From assembly GCA_964016885.1 (NCBI GenBank), contig OZ024758.1, positions 30,504,001-30,568,000 of the forward strand: a stretch of DNA of 64,000 bases, read 5' to 3'. Both the position numbers and the translations under genes were made by a program. Source of the stretch: Eledone cirrhosa. Its lineage: Eukaryota. Below the pieces are notes generated by a model. The model did not search any database, had not been told where the DNA came from, and saw only the letters and a list, made by a program, of their open reading frames with translations. Below, in pieces: positions 1-53,789 of this stretch (position 1 is the first letter of the stretch; the number at the start of each line of letters is the position of its first letter).

Positions 1-526
1 GGAGTTTCTGTTATTAATATTAGAGAAATGATTTTTTTATAATAGGGGGTATAATTATCTTTATCTATGTATTTAATTTTATTAGAGTAGCAGCCTAGAT
101 AGCGCCTCATTATAGTATTTTGCCTAATTGTCAAATATATCTTTATTAGAAGAGAGTGTAGAAATTCTAAGCTGGACACTATTAACTATAGCTTTCTTAA
201 CGTTTTAGGGTGGTTGGAATTGAAACTAACATAATTTAGGTTTCCATTTAACTTATGGTAGAGGCCAGATTTAAGATTTAAGGTAATGTCTAGGAAGTTG
301 ACTATTTTAATATTGTTTTCGATTGTTTAAAGCCATAATTATTAAAGAAGTCAATTATAATCTTCTTTTTCTTATTAAGGGCACTATTACTATGGTTATT
401 CACTATAAAAGGTGCATCATCACGATATAAACCTCCGGCAATTTCTGGCAGTTTTCTATGGATAGTGTTAAGGATGAAAATACCAACGAGATCTGTAACT
501 TGAGCTGAGTCCGAGGACCCATTTTA
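1..526 (-). pseudogene. Degenerate Penelope-like retroelement reverse transcriptase (runs off window start)
   Basis: Manual minus-strand translation through frameshifts: (M)GSSDSAQVTDLVGIFILN...GGLYRDDAPFIV...KIVNFLDITLNL...YVSFNSNHP...LRISTLSS. These match PLE RT motifs (YRDD catalytic site, FLD, SNHP). Confidence 0.85.
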
Positions 527-540
527 TACATCTAATATTG

Positions 541-5488: not shown

Positions 5489-6059
<571 letters not shown>

Positions 6060-6394
6060 TATAGAGTAAAATGACAGGAGACTAGACAGGTGAAATTCCT
6101 TCAAATTTTTATTTCTGCAAAGACTTTATACATTTCAGAGGCCAAGTTACGTAGGAACCTGGTGGCATCATCAGGTGTATATTGCATAATAGTTATATAA
6201 CAAATGGATTATGGTAAAAACATTCCAAAGGAGAAAAAGCAGAAAAGAAAAATATGTTTCTTACTCGAAGACGATCATGCGTGCCCGTTGGTGTCAGTTC
6301 GACCGACCACCCTCAAGTGCATGTGTCTGTGCAGATGTTTTTAGAAATCACAGAAACGAAGAGACTATTCTGAGATAATAGGTGAGTTTTTTAA

Positions 6395-24410: not shown

Positions 24411-25295
24411 AAGAGAGAGCTTGGGAGATAAATGAGCTTGCGTATCAAGCGAATAGTTATATCACTAGGCTATTGGTACAACATCTAGACATATATATTA
24501 TGTTGTAAGTACGAGCAAAATAATTTATCTTGTTCAAAGTAGCTGAGATCAATCGCTTGCTGGTATTTTGTCTGAATGCGTAGAGGAGAATGCCCTGCTG
24601 CCTGGATAATTTATAAATTGATTCTTTAATGGATTCTCCTGGTGTCTTATATAAAGTTTTCCTTTCAAGGTCGATAAAAAAAGTACCAGTCTAGTACTGG
24701 CGTCGATTTTCCCTCTATATCTCACACATCCATTGTCTCGCTCTCTCTATCCTTTTCAGGATGAAATCTGCTAGGAGAAATCAGACCTGGAGAGGGTATC
24801 GACTCCGACAGGTTTGAAAATACCCTAGAAACGCAGTACGTCAAAAAGGTGACCCCTACAGCTCCCTCGGGAAATACAGGTCCATGCCAGACATACAATT
24901 ATTAGCGCAGTACCCGTCAAAAGTGACGGAACGTATAGTAAACACAAATATGTAATTTAATAATTCCTTGATATATGAAGACACTTGAATTTCTTACATA
25001 TGTTGTTCTTAATTATTTAAACGAAATATATTCGGAAATTCATTAGTTTATGTCAAAAAGCGAATAATGTAGACAAAAATAAAAAAAAGGCCATGTTTTC
25101 GAGTCATCTTTATAAATGTACAAGTGGATGTAACCACGATATCCAGTTCGATTATATCTATACATACATACACACATACATGCACATACACATACACATA
25201 TATACATGCACATACACACATACACATACATTCACACATACATGAACAGACCTTCCTCAACACTAAATATTTAATTCTTGATTTTTGAATTTTAA

Positions 25296-28200
25296 TTGTA
25301 ATAACTAATAATAGATAAGGTGGGTTGTAATAACTAATAATTGATAAGGTGGGTTGTAATAACTAATAATAGATAAGGTGGGTTGTAATAACTAATAATT
25401 GATATGGTGGATTGTAATAACTAATAATAGATAAGGTGGGTTGTAATAACTAATAATTGATATGGTGGATTGTAATCACTAATAATTGATAAGGTGGATT
25501 GTAATAACTAATAATTGATATGGTGGATTGTAATAACTAATAATTGATATGGTGGGTTGTAATAACTAATAATTGATATGGTGGATTGTAATAACTAATA
25601 ATTGATATGGTGGGTTGTAATAACTAATAATTGATATGGTGGATTGTAATAATTAATAATTGATATGGTGGATTGTAATAACTAATAATTGATATGGTGG
25701 ATTGTAATAACTAATAATTGATATGGTGGATTGTAATAACTAATAATTGATACGGTGGATTGTAATAATTAATAATTGATATGGTGGATTGTAATAACTA
25801 ATAATTGATATGGTGGATTGTAATAACTAATATAAGATAAGGTTGATTGTAATAATTAATAATTGATAAGGTGGATTGTAATAACTAATAATTAATATGG
25901 TGGATTGTAATAACTAATAATAGATAAGGTGTATTGTAATAACTAATAATTGATACGGTGGATTGTAATAACTAATAATTAATAAGGTGGATTGTTATAA
26001 CTAATAATAGATATGGTGGATTGTAATAACTAATAATTAATATGGTGGATTGTAATAATTAATGATTGATATGGTGGATTGGAATAACTAATAATTGATA
26101 TGGTGGGTTGTAATAACTAATAATTAATATGTTGGATTGTAATAATTAATAATAGATAAGGGGGATTGTAATAACTAATAATTGATACGGTGGATTGTAA
26201 TAACTAATAATTAATATGTTGGATTGTAATAATTAATAATAGATAAGGGGGATTGTAATAACTAATAATTGAAACGGTGGATTGTAATAACTAATAATAG
26301 ATATGGTGGATTGTAATAACTAATAATTGATAAGGTTGATTGTAATAACTAATAATTGATAAGGTTGATTGTAATAACTAATAATTAATATGGTGGATTG
26401 TAATAACTAATATTTGATAAGGTTGATTGTAATAACTAATAATTAATATGGTGGATTGTAATAACTAATAATTGATAAGGTTGATTGTAATAACTAATAA
26501 TTAATATGGTGGATTGTAATAACTAATAATAGATATGGTGGATTGTAATAACTAATAATTAATATGGTGGATTGTAATAATTAATAATAGATAAGGTGTA
26601 TTGTAATAACTAATAATTGATATGGTGGATTGTAATAACTAATAATTGATATGGTGGATTGTAATAACTAATAATAGATATGGTGGATTGTAATAACTAA
26701 TAATTGATAAGGTGGATTGTAATAACTAATAATTGATATGGTGGGTTGTAATAACTAATAATTGATATGGTGGGTTGTAATAACTAATAATTGATATGGT
26801 GGATTGTAATAACTAATAATTGATAAGGTGGATTGTAATAACTAATAATAGATATGGTGGGTTGTAATAACTAATAATTGATATGGTGGGTTGTAATAAC
26901 TAATAATTGATAAGGTGGATTGTAATAACTAATAATAGATATGGTGGATTGTAATAACTAATAATTGATATGGTGGATTGTAATAACTAATAATAGATAA
27001 GGTGTATTGTAATAACTAATAATTGATATGGTGGATTGTAATAACTAATAATTGATATGGTGGATTGTAATAACTAATAATAGATAAGGTGGGTTGTAAT
27101 AACTAATAATTGATATGGTGGATTGTAATCACTAATAATTGATAAGGTGGATTGTAATAACTAATAATTGATAAGGTGGATTGTAATCACTAATAATTGA
27201 TATGGTGGATTGTAATAACTAATAATTGATATGGTGGATTGTAATAACTAATAATAGATATGGTGGATTGTAATAACTAATAATTAATATGGTGGATTGT
27301 AATAACTAATAATTAATATGGTGGATTGTAATAACTAATAATAGATATGGTGGATTGTAATAACTAATAATAGATAAGGTGGATTGTAATAACTAATAAT
27401 TGATATGGTGGATTGTAATAACTAATAATTGATAAGGTGGATTGTAATAACTAATAATATATATGGTGGATTGTAATAACTAATAATTGATATGGTGGAT
27501 TGTAATAACTAATAATTGATATGGTGGATTGTAATAATTAATAATTGATATGGTGGATTGTAATAACTAATAGTTGATATGGTGGATTGTAATAACTAAT
27601 AATTATTATGGTGGATTGTAATAACTAATAATTGATAAGGTGGATTGTAATAACTAATAATAGATATGGTGGATTGTAATAACTAATAATTGATAAGGTG
27701 GATTGTAATAACTAATAATAGATATGGTGGATTGTAATAACTAATAATAGATAAGGTGGATTGTAATAACTAATAATTGATATGGTGTATTGTAATAACT
27801 AATAATTGATAAGGTGGATTGTAATAACTAATAATAGATATGGTGGATTGTAATAACTAATAATTGATAAGGTGGATTGTAATAACTAATAATTGATATG
27901 GTGGAATGTAATAACTAATAATTGATACGGTGGATTGTAATAACTAATAATTGATAAGGTGGATTGTAATAACTAATAATTGATATGGTGGGTTGTAATA
28001 ACTAATAATTGATATGGTGGATTGTAATAACTAATAATTGATAAGGTGGATTGTAATAACTAATAATTGATATGGTGGATTGTAATAACTAATAATTGAT
28101 ATGGTGGATTGTAATAATTAATAATAGATATGGTGGATTGTAATAACTAATAATTGATAAGGTGGATTGTAATAACTAATAATTGATATGGTGGATTGTA

Positions 28201-28948
28201 ATAACTAATAATTGATATGGTGGATTGTAATAACTAATAATTGATAAGGTGGATTGTAATAACTAATAATTGATATGGTGGATTGTAATAATTAATAATA
28301 GATATGGTGGATTGTAATAACTAATAATTGATAAGGTGGATTGTAATAACTAATAATTGATATGGTGGATTGTAATAACTAATAATTGATATGAATTGTA
28401 ATAACTAATAATTAATAAGGTGGATTGTAATAACTAATAATTGATACGGTGGATTGTAATAACTAATAATTGATATGGTGGATTGTAATAACTAATAATT
28501 GATATGGTGGGTTGTAATAACTAATAATTATTATGGTGGATTGTAATAACTAATAATTGATATGGTGGATTGTAATAACTAATAATTGATATGGTGGATT
28601 GTAATAACTAATAATTGATATGGTGGATTGTAATAACTAATAATTATTATGGTGGATTGTAATAACTAATAATTGATATGGTGGGTTGTAATAACTAATA
28701 ATTATTATGGTGGATTGTAATAACTAATAATTGATAAGGTGGATTGTAATAACTAATAATTGATATGGTGGATTGTAATAATTAATAATTGATAAGGTGG
28801 ATTGTAATAACTAATAATTGATACGGTGGATTGTAATAACTAATAATTAATATGGTGGATTGTAATAACTAATAAATTAATAAGGTGGATTGTAATAACT
28901 AATAATTGATATGGTGGATTGTAATAACTAATAATTAATATGGTGGAT
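25296..28948. repeat. 29-bp satellite array, roughly 125 copies
   Basis: Unit ggattgtaataactaataattgatatggt with recurrent variants. Confidence 0.98.
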
Positions 28949-29066
28949 TTTATATAGTTCATAAAACTCCTTTCTTTAAAAACACTTTAACATATTACAA
29001 AAGTTTCCTTATATATACTGCTATGCCTTTACCATTCTTACTTTTTTGGTCATAACCTCTGTTTTG

Positions 29067-29109
<43 letters not shown>

Positions 29110-29155
29110 GAAGTAACAGGAGGCTGGACTGGTGTAAATCCTTGAAAAGTTTATT

Positions 29156-29213
29156 ATACTATGATCATTTCAATGATCGGGTTCCATATGAATCCGTTGA
29201 TATCATCAGGTAT
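29156..29213 (-). ncRNA. Type I hammerhead ribozyme motif
   Basis: Minus strand reads atac CTGATGA ...imperfect stem II... GAAA tgatca TA gtat. Confidence 0.75.
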
Positions 29214-30342
29214 TGTAATATAACAACGGAATATGTAAAAAGCCATGGGTCCGAAAAACCATGGGTCCGAGAAACCAGAAGCAGAGAAGGCGGCTGACCA
29301 CTAGCCTCACAGCCAGCCGCCCTCAAAGTGTTGGCAACCGAAAAACTACCAGGGAACATCTGGTAAGGGGACGCAGGCCTATCATGTACTACCACCACTC
29401 CGTCAAAGAAGAAGGGGAAGAAAGAAAGAAAGGGAGAAAGAAGTGTAGTGTAAGGGTCAAAATACATTCATGTTAGAAAATGCCGCGAAAAGAATGCTAC
29501 CCAAAGAATTTATAATGGGTGTCTGTATGGTCTAATGTGTGAACCGAAGATTGGAACGTTAAACTTATGTTGCGAGTTATAGGATGAAATAAATTAAATT
29601 AAAAATATTATATTGCAAAATGGTAAATTGAAAAATAGAGGCAGCGAGATTTATTTATTTAACGAACTTACGGAGAGAGTCTTATATGAAATTTTTTTTT
29701 TATTTAACTCGATAAGATATTAGGATGGTATATAGAGTAAAGATTTTGATTGAGAGTCCCAGCCAGCACACCCACCACCATGAGTCAGCCAGTCTCGAGT
29801 GGTATCGTCCAGCGAAAGAAAGGGAAATTAATTTTTCAGAGTACTCTAGGAACGTAACTAACTTTGGCCCCGGGATCGCTAGCGGGAACCCCACAATTTC
29901 GACGGGCCATCGTCTATACCACGAATACTATTAAATCACACATTAGGGGTTTATTTACGTGTCAATAGAGGCATGATACAGCTAATAGTTGTGCCCAAAC
30001 CTGGAGTTTGTAGGTACAGGTATAATTAGGCTGCCAAAACAGGCGGCGCGGTGGGACTGGGGCAGAGCAAGCCACTCCGAGTAATTTCATTTACCGAAAG
30101 AGGAGAAATTTATTTTTCCGAGCACTCAAGGAAGGCTGAACTTTCCGAGTGCCCAGCGCGCAGCCGGGAAAAAGCCACCACACAAGTCAAACAATGAAAA
30201 GTGCAAATAGATCAAAATTATTCAACACTTTGAGGGCGGCTGGCTGTGAAGCTAGTGGTCAGCCGCCTTCGCTGTCTCTGGTTTCTCGGACCCATGGTTT
30301 TTCGGACCCATGGCTTTTTACATATTCCTTTGTTATATTCCA

Positions 30343-30400
30343 AAACCTGATGATATCACCGGATTCATATGGAACCCAGTCATTGAAATGATCATAGTAT
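30343..30400 (+). ncRNA. Type I hammerhead ribozyme motif
   Basis: aaac CTGATGA (30347-30353) ... GAAA (30385-30388) tgatca TA gtat; one stem I mismatch. Confidence 0.7.
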
Positions 30401-30594
30401 AATAAACTTTTCAAGGATTTACACCAGTCTAGCCTCCTGTTACTTCATTTATAATTAAATCCGTATTCGCACCACCAACTACACAAACGAAGATGGCTGA
30501 ACTGCACTGCGTTGAGTACTCTCCACAATATTACACTAGGATTGACCATACGGAATGACCAGTTCTATCCAGTGGTGAACCAACAAACCTTAAG

Positions 30595-30650
<56 letters not shown>

Positions 30651-53170: not shown

Positions 53171-53197
53171 CTCTCTCTCTCTCTCTATATATATATA

Positions 53198-53748
53198 ATA
53201 AAATAACAGGAGGCTGGACTGGTGTAACTCCTTAAAGGTTTATTATATTATGAACATTTCAATGACCGGGTTCAGTATGAATAAGGTGACATCATCAGGT
53301 ATTCGAAATTTAACAAAGAATATCATCCATGGGGCTGAAAAGGTAGTGACAAGAAGGCGACCACACATTTAGCAGTTTCTAGTGAGGGCGGCCGCCCTCA
53401 CTAGAAACTGAGGGCGGCCGACCGAACTAGAAACTGCTAAATGTGTGGCCGCCTTCTTGTCACTACCTTTTCAGCCCCATGGATGATATTCCTTTGTTAA
53501 ATTTCGAATACCTGATGATGTCACCGGATTCATACTGAACCCGGTCATTGAAATGTTCATAATATAATAAACCTTTAAGGATTTACACCAGTCCAGCCTC
53601 CTGTTATTTTATAATAATTAACTCCGTACTTGCACCACCAACACAAATGAAGACGGGCGAGTTGCATTATGTCGAATGCTCTCCCTAATATTACATCGAG
53701 GTTGACCATACGGAATGACCAGTTCTATCTAGTGGTGAACCAACAAAC
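53198..53748. mobile_element. Fold-back element family C with two hammerheads (53245-53302 minus, 53508-53565 plus)
   Basis: Inverted arms at about 53198-53383 and 53427-53612; CTGATGA 53512-53518, GAAA 53550-53553; tail homologous to 30454-30588. Confidence 0.8.
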
Positions 53749-53789
53749 ATAAATAAATAAATAAATAAAAAAATATATATATATAACAT

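What the first reader, a model, noticed from the sequence alone, without database searches (positions are those of the whole stretch)
29103..30588. 1.5-kb element with inverted hammerhead-bearing pseudo-LTRs around a non-coding core
Seen: two arms of about 230 bp in inverted orientation with several mismatches (which argues against an assembly echo), each carrying a hammerhead with a palindromic tgatca stem III. They enclose about 890 bp with no recognisable RT/GIY-YIG, and TA tracts lie on both sides. Palindromic stem III is the known signature of minimal hammerheads that cleave as dimers. Inference: a non-autonomous PLE derivative or retrozyme-like element that has a ribozyme on each strand.
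Basis: partly seen in the sequence, partly recalled or inferred. Interest (0 to 1): 0.75.

Follow-up and report, generated by a model that had tools for sequence, protein, structure and literature searches.

The report
Giant non-coding Penelope-type hammerhead parasite
The 1.5-kb mirror-image stretch is not an element of its own but one cut-short, folded-back copy of a repeat that is about 1.9 kb long, codes for no protein, carries a predicted self-cutting hammerhead RNA and occurs thousands of times in this genome, likely spread by the enzymes of Penelope-type jumping genes.

Summary
The inverted arms (238 nt, 94% complementary), both hammerhead motifs, the palindromic stem III and the TA flanks are real. 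The 1.5-kb unit is not. The core and the left arm are one continuous minus-strand piece of a ~1.88-kb non-coding monomer. The right arm plus a 146-nt tail is a second, shorter copy joined head-to-head at a breakpoint that 0 of 19 other copies share.

The family has at least 5,424 hammerhead copies. It has five collinear non-coding subfamilies of 1.85-2.7 kb. Insertions show Penelope-like (PLE) anatomy: partial tandems, variable 5' inversion, (TA)n targets and two fixed 3' ends. 37 of 38 clean inverted pairs carry one end of each kind. No coding partner was found: 0 of 40 fetched read-through junctions (of 176) lead to a PLE ORF.

The hammerhead covaries between subfamilies but has an atypical U·U at the base of helix II. 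Both copies in the window are mutated, and cleavage and expression are untested.

Verdict: a non-autonomous PLE-type (retrozyme-like) family, unusual for size and age. The scan earlier noted similar, smaller (310-591 nt) families elsewhere in this genome.

The parts
29067..29106 (.). (TA)n target tract, left
   Evidence: 170 of 219 family hammerhead copies run into TA tracts at one of the two fixed ends
29103..30222 (-). Long arm: 3' 1,120 nt of the 1.88-kb monomer, ending at fixed end A (about 53-60 nt after the predicted cut, no tail)
   Evidence: continuous 93-95% match to other copies
29334..30222 (-).
29156..29213 (-). Type I hammerhead motif, left copy; helix I intact, two changes in helix II; predicted cut after 29160
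30222..30223 (.). Head-to-head inversion junction, private to this copy
   Evidence: 0 of 19 other core copies share it
30223..30453 (+). Short arm: second 5'-truncated copy of the monomer's 3' end
30343..30400 (+). Type I hammerhead motif, right copy; one change in helix I, one in helix II; palindrome 30388-30395; predicted cut after 30396
30454..30599 (+). 146-nt tail to fixed end B (about 198 nt after the predicted cut); in tandem copies it reads through into the next unit
30597..30650 (.). (TA)n target tract, right
53186..53760 (.). Second family insertion in the window (G subfamily), inverted, end A left and end B right
6040..6320 (-). Stub of the most diverged subfamily (D), end A into a TA tract

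Best explanation
This is one 5'-truncated, 5'-inverted insertion of a high-copy, ~1.9-kb, protein-free repeat unit with one hammerhead motif, likely copied into TA repeats in trans by the reverse transcriptase-endonuclease of a Penelope-like element. Shown: the monomer, its tandem read-through, the two fixed 3' ends, the variable inversion point, the lack of ORFs and the covariation of the hammerhead. Inferred: (1) a longer-than-unit or circular RNA is made from partial-tandem copies; (2) a PLE protein, most likely of the Hydra-like type that is very abundant here, binds the conserved hammerhead-tail region; (3) it cuts both strands of a (TA)n target and primes one cDNA from each strand, one at site A and one at site B; (4) both cDNAs stop at random and are joined head-to-head, which gives the inverted arms. 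Here the A cDNA ran 1,120 nt and the B cDNA 377 nt. (5) The hammerhead would cleave only as a dimer, weakly or with protein help, and most templates were uncut or circular. Odds: anatomy 0.95; non-coding and driven in trans by a PLE 0.85; Hydra-like driver 0.6; hammerhead still catalytic in the family 0.5; circular template 0.35.
For: Monomer closes on itself: hammerhead-to-hammerhead 1854-1918 nt in T copies and 1964-1982 in C, about 2.06-2.08 kb in G and 2.3-2.7 kb in C2. There are 176 exact tail-to-body junctions, 0 in the control. Of 40 fetched, none leads to a PLE ORF. The longest ORFs in ten aligned monomers are 84-130 aa. A profile of 41 Hydra-like protein pieces gives best E 0.73 on nine monomers versus 0.58 on reversed controls. 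Ends: of 219 distinct hammerhead copies, 95 end at A, 75 at B, 19 read through and 30 are unclear; 37 of 38 clean inverted pairs are A+B (P about 1e-10). The coding Hydra-like family (927-aa ORF; 59,851 candidates) has the same build, with ends 61 and about 225 nt after its hammerhead cut, and A+B in 5 of 5 clean inverted pairs (L084, L086, L096, L097, L098). In vitro, a PLE protein cuts and extends both strands, starts at two internal RNA sites that bound the tail, is predicted dimeric and mostly uses uncut RNA (PMC11167929). pLTRs suffice for mobilisation in trans (PMC3846280). The 100-nt window holding the hammerhead is 92% identical between T and G against 39-84% in the other windows. Covariation with subfamily D: helix II pairs GC13/AU11/GU7 and GC15/AU14/GU2; palindrome centre AU16/UA15.
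Against: No sequence link to any coding PLE: no blastn match beyond AT-rich chance hits to 34 Hydra-like loci, apart from the element itself in L066. The relaxed hammerhead pattern gave 57 of 60 deletion variants of the family and 3 unrelated singletons. The driver is therefore inferred from architecture alone. The junction pattern would miss a coding partner whose sequence after the tail differs. The tail (146 nt) is longer than the 30-40 nt in the PLE papers read. The hammerhead lacks a plain G10.1-C11.1 pair next to the core, and its minimum-energy fold pairs the core into an inactive hairpin. Many D copies have an A·C mismatch in helix II. 5' ends do not pile up at the predicted cut beyond what TA microhomology explains. 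The two copies with two whole monomers are 100% and 99.7% identical between units, which points to later duplication or assembly and not to rolling-circle copying. The monomer is not highly self-paired (1 of 8 rough shuffles folded as well). A weak period-3 signal (P about 0.02) appeared in 2 of 3 subfamily comparisons, but not in the largest. Loci were top hits or first-listed hits, not a random sample.
Confidence: 0.8

Rival explanations
1. The unit is the remnant (long UTR or internally deleted form) of a coding PLE that still exists, or existed, with the same hammerhead and tail.
For: Retrozymes in Xenopus match PLE pLTRs (10.64898/2026.07.22.740005). The first ~350 nt after the tail, where a PLE ORF would start, are well conserved. 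Weak period-3 signal in 2 of 3 tests. In L270 a Hydra-like ORF piece lies just upstream of a D arm on the same strand.
Against: 0 of 40 junction loci and none of the 95 loci show an ORF in place of the body. No profile match. Five subfamilies down to 67% identity are all non-coding and collinear. The L270 ORF piece stops at about aa 673, before the endonuclease, so it is a junction and not a gene end.
Confidence: 0.12
2. The motif is no longer a working ribozyme; it is kept as the RNA signal that the PLE protein binds and primes on, and templates are linear read-through transcripts.
For: U·U next to the core and an inactive minimum-energy fold. No clear pile-up of 5' ends at the cut. The PLE hammerhead is dispensable for insertion in vitro (PMC11167929). 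Eight of nine Xenopus dimers did not cleave.
Against: Core nucleotides are invariant or nearly so, and the palindrome is kept through a double change; a binding site alone would not obviously need either. Longer-than-unit copies must be regenerated somehow.
Confidence: 0.35
3. One reading: a discrete 1.5-kb element with inverted pseudo-LTRs whose two strands each carry a ribozyme.
For: Arms, motifs and TA flanks are as described.
Against: The junction is private (0 of 19). Spacing is 136-3041 nt. The unit is a direct-repeat monomer with one hammerhead.
Confidence: 0.02

Closest known systems
Insertion units of endonuclease-positive Penelope-like elements (PMC8557442 Fig. 2 text; PMC3846280; PMC11167929), Hydra clade as likely driver
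   Same: 5' truncation, partial tandems, inverted 5'-truncated copy, tail on one end only, (TA)n targets, type I hammerhead with palindromic helix III near the 3' end.
   Different: No ORF. The tail is 146 nt rather than 30-40 nt (about 164 nt in the coding family here). No sequence shared with the coding family tested.
Metazoan non-LTR retrozymes (PMC7229834; bioRxiv 10.64898/2026.07.22.740005)
   Same: Non-coding, tandem-prone unit with one type I hammerhead per monomer, GC under 45% (39%), co-occurring with PLEs, which are the proposed driver.
   Different: Mostly dispersed truncated or inverted copies, not arrays. Not highly self-paired. Circular RNA untested.
Putatively non-autonomous Chlamys PLEs such as MRC1 (PMC8557442)
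   Same: Non-coding PLE-dependent elements that form pLTRs and head-to-tail copies.
   Different: Those generally match an autonomous family at the 3' end, and Chlamys mostly lack canonical hammerheads; here a hammerhead is present and no matching autonomous family was found.
PLE minimal hammerheads (PMC4209133)
   Same: Short helix I, long helix II, unpaired nucleotide after A9, palindromic helix III for dimer folding, opposite-strand pairs 100-700 bp apart.
   Different: An extra U before G12 faces the U after A9 (U·U). The next pair is A-U, G·U or G-C. There is a fixed C·C mismatch and a possible 5-bp pseudoknot in T and C subfamilies.

Membership tests
Penelope-like element (autonomous, EN+) | Single ORF with telomerase-like RT and GIY-YIG endonuclease | tested here: not met
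   longest ORFs 84-130 aa in ten monomers; no tblastn or profile match
Penelope-like element (insertion anatomy) | Partial-tandem pLTRs | tested here: met
   176 read-through junctions; upstream partial units in L011, L046, L048, L053, L061, L064
Penelope-like element (insertion anatomy) | Inverted 5'-truncated copy and tail on one end only | tested here: met
   37 of 38 clean pairs A+B
Penelope-like element (insertion anatomy) | AT-rich or (TA)n target | tested here: met
   170 of 219 hammerhead copies end in TA tracts at A or B; target duplication cannot be read in TA repeats
Non-autonomous PLE | 3' end shared with an autonomous family | tested here: inconclusive
   none found against one coding family and by a relaxed pattern; other PLE families of the genome were not surveyed
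Non-autonomous PLE | Mobilised in trans by PLE protein | not testable with these tools
   architecture only; one head-to-head chimera with the Hydra-like family (L007)
Metazoan non-LTR retrozyme | Non-coding unit with one type I hammerhead per tandem monomer | tested here: met
Metazoan non-LTR retrozyme | Small monomer (170-400 nt; up to 972 bp) | tested here: not met
   1.85-2.7 kb
Metazoan non-LTR retrozyme | Highly self-paired RNA | tested here: inconclusive
   circular MFE -393 against -369 to -394 in 8 rough doublet shuffles, 1 of which folded as well
Metazoan non-LTR retrozyme | Expressed as linear and circular RNA, self-cleaving | not testable with these tools
   no suitable RNA data; no bench assay
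Type I hammerhead ribozyme | Conserved core CUGANGA, GAAA, UH and helices I-III | tested here: met
   core invariant or nearly so in 35 sequences; helix II and palindrome covary; helix I 97% paired in T/C/G
Type I hammerhead ribozyme | G10.1-C11.1 pair directly next to the core | tested here: not met
   32 of 32 distinct rows unpaired (U·U in nearly all) at that position; G-C one step out in 13 of 32
Type I hammerhead ribozyme | Self-cleavage | not testable with these tools
   needs in vitro assay

The most novel reading that the evidence does not exclude
A long-lived lineage of giant retrozymes: 1.9-2.7-kb non-coding RNA parasites with no surviving coding relative, kept through at least five subfamilies, cut and circularised by a dimeric hammerhead variant with a U·U pair at the foot of helix II, and inserted by Hydra-type PLE dimers that prime both target strands at two fixed RNA sites, sometimes on two different RNAs (L007).
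Probability: 0.3. Interest if true: 0.65.

Novelty: new variant of a known kind. Interest (0 to 1): 0.4.

Why it matters
The locus itself is an ordinary PLE-type inverted insertion. The family matters in three ways. (1) It would extend hammerhead-bearing non-coding PLE passengers to 2-3 times the largest animal retrozyme size in the papers read; a screen capped at period 1000 could not see it. (2) Thousands of ORF-free copies with a near-strict one-A-one-B rule give a genomic test bed for the open question of how PLEs make inverted pLTRs and tails, and they define a short cis signal that lets a PLE protein move about 2 kb of unrelated RNA. (3) The covarying U·U hammerhead variant is missed by Rfam and is directly assayable.

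Tried and rejected
Rfam: nothing at gathering threshold in the window, and no hammerhead hit at E<=1 in three monomer loci. Pfam did not recognise the 927-aa PLE protein; 'Hydra-like' rests on its C-terminal CxC/GIY-YIG layout, my recall of the clade, and earlier scan notes.

Candidate partners rejected: the Hydra-like ORFs beside family copies in L025, L052, L105, L119, L221 and L234 lie beyond TA tracts or other sequence. The L270 piece lacks the endonuclease. An 'IPLPCRK' resemblance to the Hydra N-terminus did not survive the profile test.

Pseudoknot between the helix I bulge and loop II: pair 21-51 is GC43/AU19/GU2 with none unpaired, but this is about one event, G fits poorly and D does not fit, so it is tentative. 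Searches used misregistered structures and are superseded. In one search the helix I pair was misplaced and helix I could not be counted because of gap placement; the T-A to C-G change in D helix I is read by eye.

Two-monomer copies were rejected as proof of rolling-circle copying. 5' ends at the cut site were inconclusive (about 31 distinct sites in the first 100 of 175 rows, spread from about -15 to +8).

Literature searches that showed no report of this family or of a kilobase-size animal retrozyme: (open-licence PMC and bioRxiv only; Repbase and Dfam not searchable; bioRxiv supplements not seen).

Full report
Observation. No ORF exceeds 100 aa. Rfam sees nothing. The window lies in a 3.0-Gb genome; earlier scan notes call it octopus-like, which I did not test.

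The core travels with one arm. The core has 2,025 candidate matches and the arm 2,315, of which 40 each were scored. In 19 of 19 other core loci the core runs into the left arm, in 16 of them through the hammerhead. None joins the right arm at 30223. All 19 continue instead into a shared upstream sequence, one after a deletion. That sequence, about 600 nt, is preceded by the tail of a previous unit. The true unit is thus a direct-repeat monomer of about 1.88 kb, read on the minus strand of the window. The window holds its last 1,120 nt, and, inverted, a second piece of 231 nt plus a 146-nt tail.

Family. The hammerhead pattern has 5,424 exact hits (0 in the control), plus 161 for the diverged D form. 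Subfamilies T, C and G are collinear, 81-85% (T-C) and 67-73% (to G) identical, with longest ORFs of 84-130 aa in ten monomers. Monomer lengths are 1854-1918 (T), 1964-1982 (C), about 2.06-2.08 kb (G) and 2.3-2.7 kb (C2). D is also collinear and non-coding. Of 176 exact tail-to-body junctions, 40 were fetched, chosen to cover the variants. None leads to a PLE ORF; the two long ORFs among them are RT pieces of another, LINE-like type by my recall. A profile of 41 Hydra-like protein pieces scores nine monomers no better than reversed controls. A weak period-3 signal in 2 of 3 comparisons is the only hint of past coding.

Insertion anatomy. Of 219 distinct hammerhead copies in 209 loci, 95 end about 53-60 nt after the cut (A), 75 about 198 nt after it (B), 19 read through and 30 are unclear or at a locus edge. 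Of 55 divergent pairs, 38 have two clean ends: 37 are A+B and 1 is A+A. Spacing runs from 136 to 3,041 nt. These loci were top or first-listed hits. Arms within an insertion are slightly more alike (97.2%, n=13) than between insertions (95.9%, n=78), and the window's arms share 2 variants, consistent with one source and later decay. A very abundant coding PLE in this genome (927-aa ORF, C-terminal GIY-YIG) has the same layout, with ends 61 and about 225 nt after its own hammerhead and A+B in 5 of 5 clean pairs. It shares no sequence with the family. In L007 a family copy is joined head-to-head to a piece of that coding family, but both ends are B, and it is one case.

Hammerhead. The core is invariant or nearly so. 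Helix II covaries (GC13/AU11/GU7; GC15/AU14/GU2) and the palindrome centre flips (AU16/UA15) between T/C/G and D. These are few independent events. The 100-nt window holding it is the most conserved part of the unit. Against activity: a U·U replaces the usual pair next to the core, a C·C interrupts helix II, and the minimum-energy fold buries the core. With core and helix III held open, helix II is -9.1 kcal/mol in a majority-type copy, but -2.9 and -4.6 in the window's right and left copies, so these two are probably dead. Many copies extend upstream across the cut site, and 5' ends show no clean pile-up there. The template was therefore mostly uncut multimer or circle. The two double-monomer copies do not decide this.

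Mechanism and literature. PMC11167929 (parts 1-2 of 4 read) shows a PLE protein cutting and extending both strands, starting at two internal RNA sites that bound the tail, with a protein-assisted hammerhead that is dispensable for insertion. The A+B rule is what priming from each strand at a different site would leave; this step is my inference. PMC8557442 (passages) describes partial tandems, inverted truncated copies, tails, (TA)n bias, hammerheads in Hydra and non-autonomous Chlamys. PMC4209133 (parts 1-2 of 4) describes dimer-type PLE hammerheads and opposite-strand pairs. PMC7229834 (passages) and 10.64898/2026.07.22.740005 (parts 1-3 of 5) define retrozymes of 170-400 nt and 51-972 bp and propose PLEs as driver. 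PMC3846280 (passages) shows pLTR-flanked cargo moved in trans. PMC3088659 (passages) gives pseudoknots in about 40% of hammerheads.

Verdict. The family works like a retrozyme or non-autonomous PLE, but fails the retrozyme size feature and has no identified partner. Earlier scan notes report smaller families with the same footprint in this genome and no look-alike of this sequence. Novelty: new variant of a known kind; interest 0.4.

Noticed in passing
L007:1141-1142 (G000:C4:152690760-152694690 region): A family copy joined head-to-head, with a 2-nt overlap, to a 5'-truncated copy of the coding Hydra-like PLE; both outer ends are tail-bearing ends in TA tracts. Possibly one insertion copied from two different RNAs.
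   Followed up: partly
L096:2779-5559; L097:2983-5763: Very abundant Hydra-like PLE with open 927-aa ORFs (59,851 candidates), not recognised by Pfam; its hammerhead core reads CUUGAGAA or UUGAGAA rather than CUGANGA.
   Followed up: partly
window 25295-28949: 29-bp minisatellite, 126 copies, 92% matches, strong G skew, ending 150 nt left of the insertion.
   Followed up: no
window 100-535 (-): Broken RT fragment about 50% identical to the Hydra-like protein.
   Followed up: no
fetched loci: At least eight other hammerhead families with different palindromic helix III sequences, several with long helix II, lie in the flanks of the fetched loci.
   Followed up: no
L231, L232: Insertions with two whole monomers 100% and 99.7% identical while their end pieces are about 4% or more diverged; likely recent duplication between pLTRs, or assembly.
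   Followed up: partly
window 30105-30134 and 29810-29850 (-): An internal 29-nt direct repeat in the body, conserved in all five subfamilies including D; a possible cis signal.
   Followed up: no
window 30232-30272 (+) and 29285-29325 (-): A GC-rich hairpin about 80 nt upstream of the hammerhead, present with changed sequence in C, G, C2 and D subfamilies (seen by eye).
   Followed up: no
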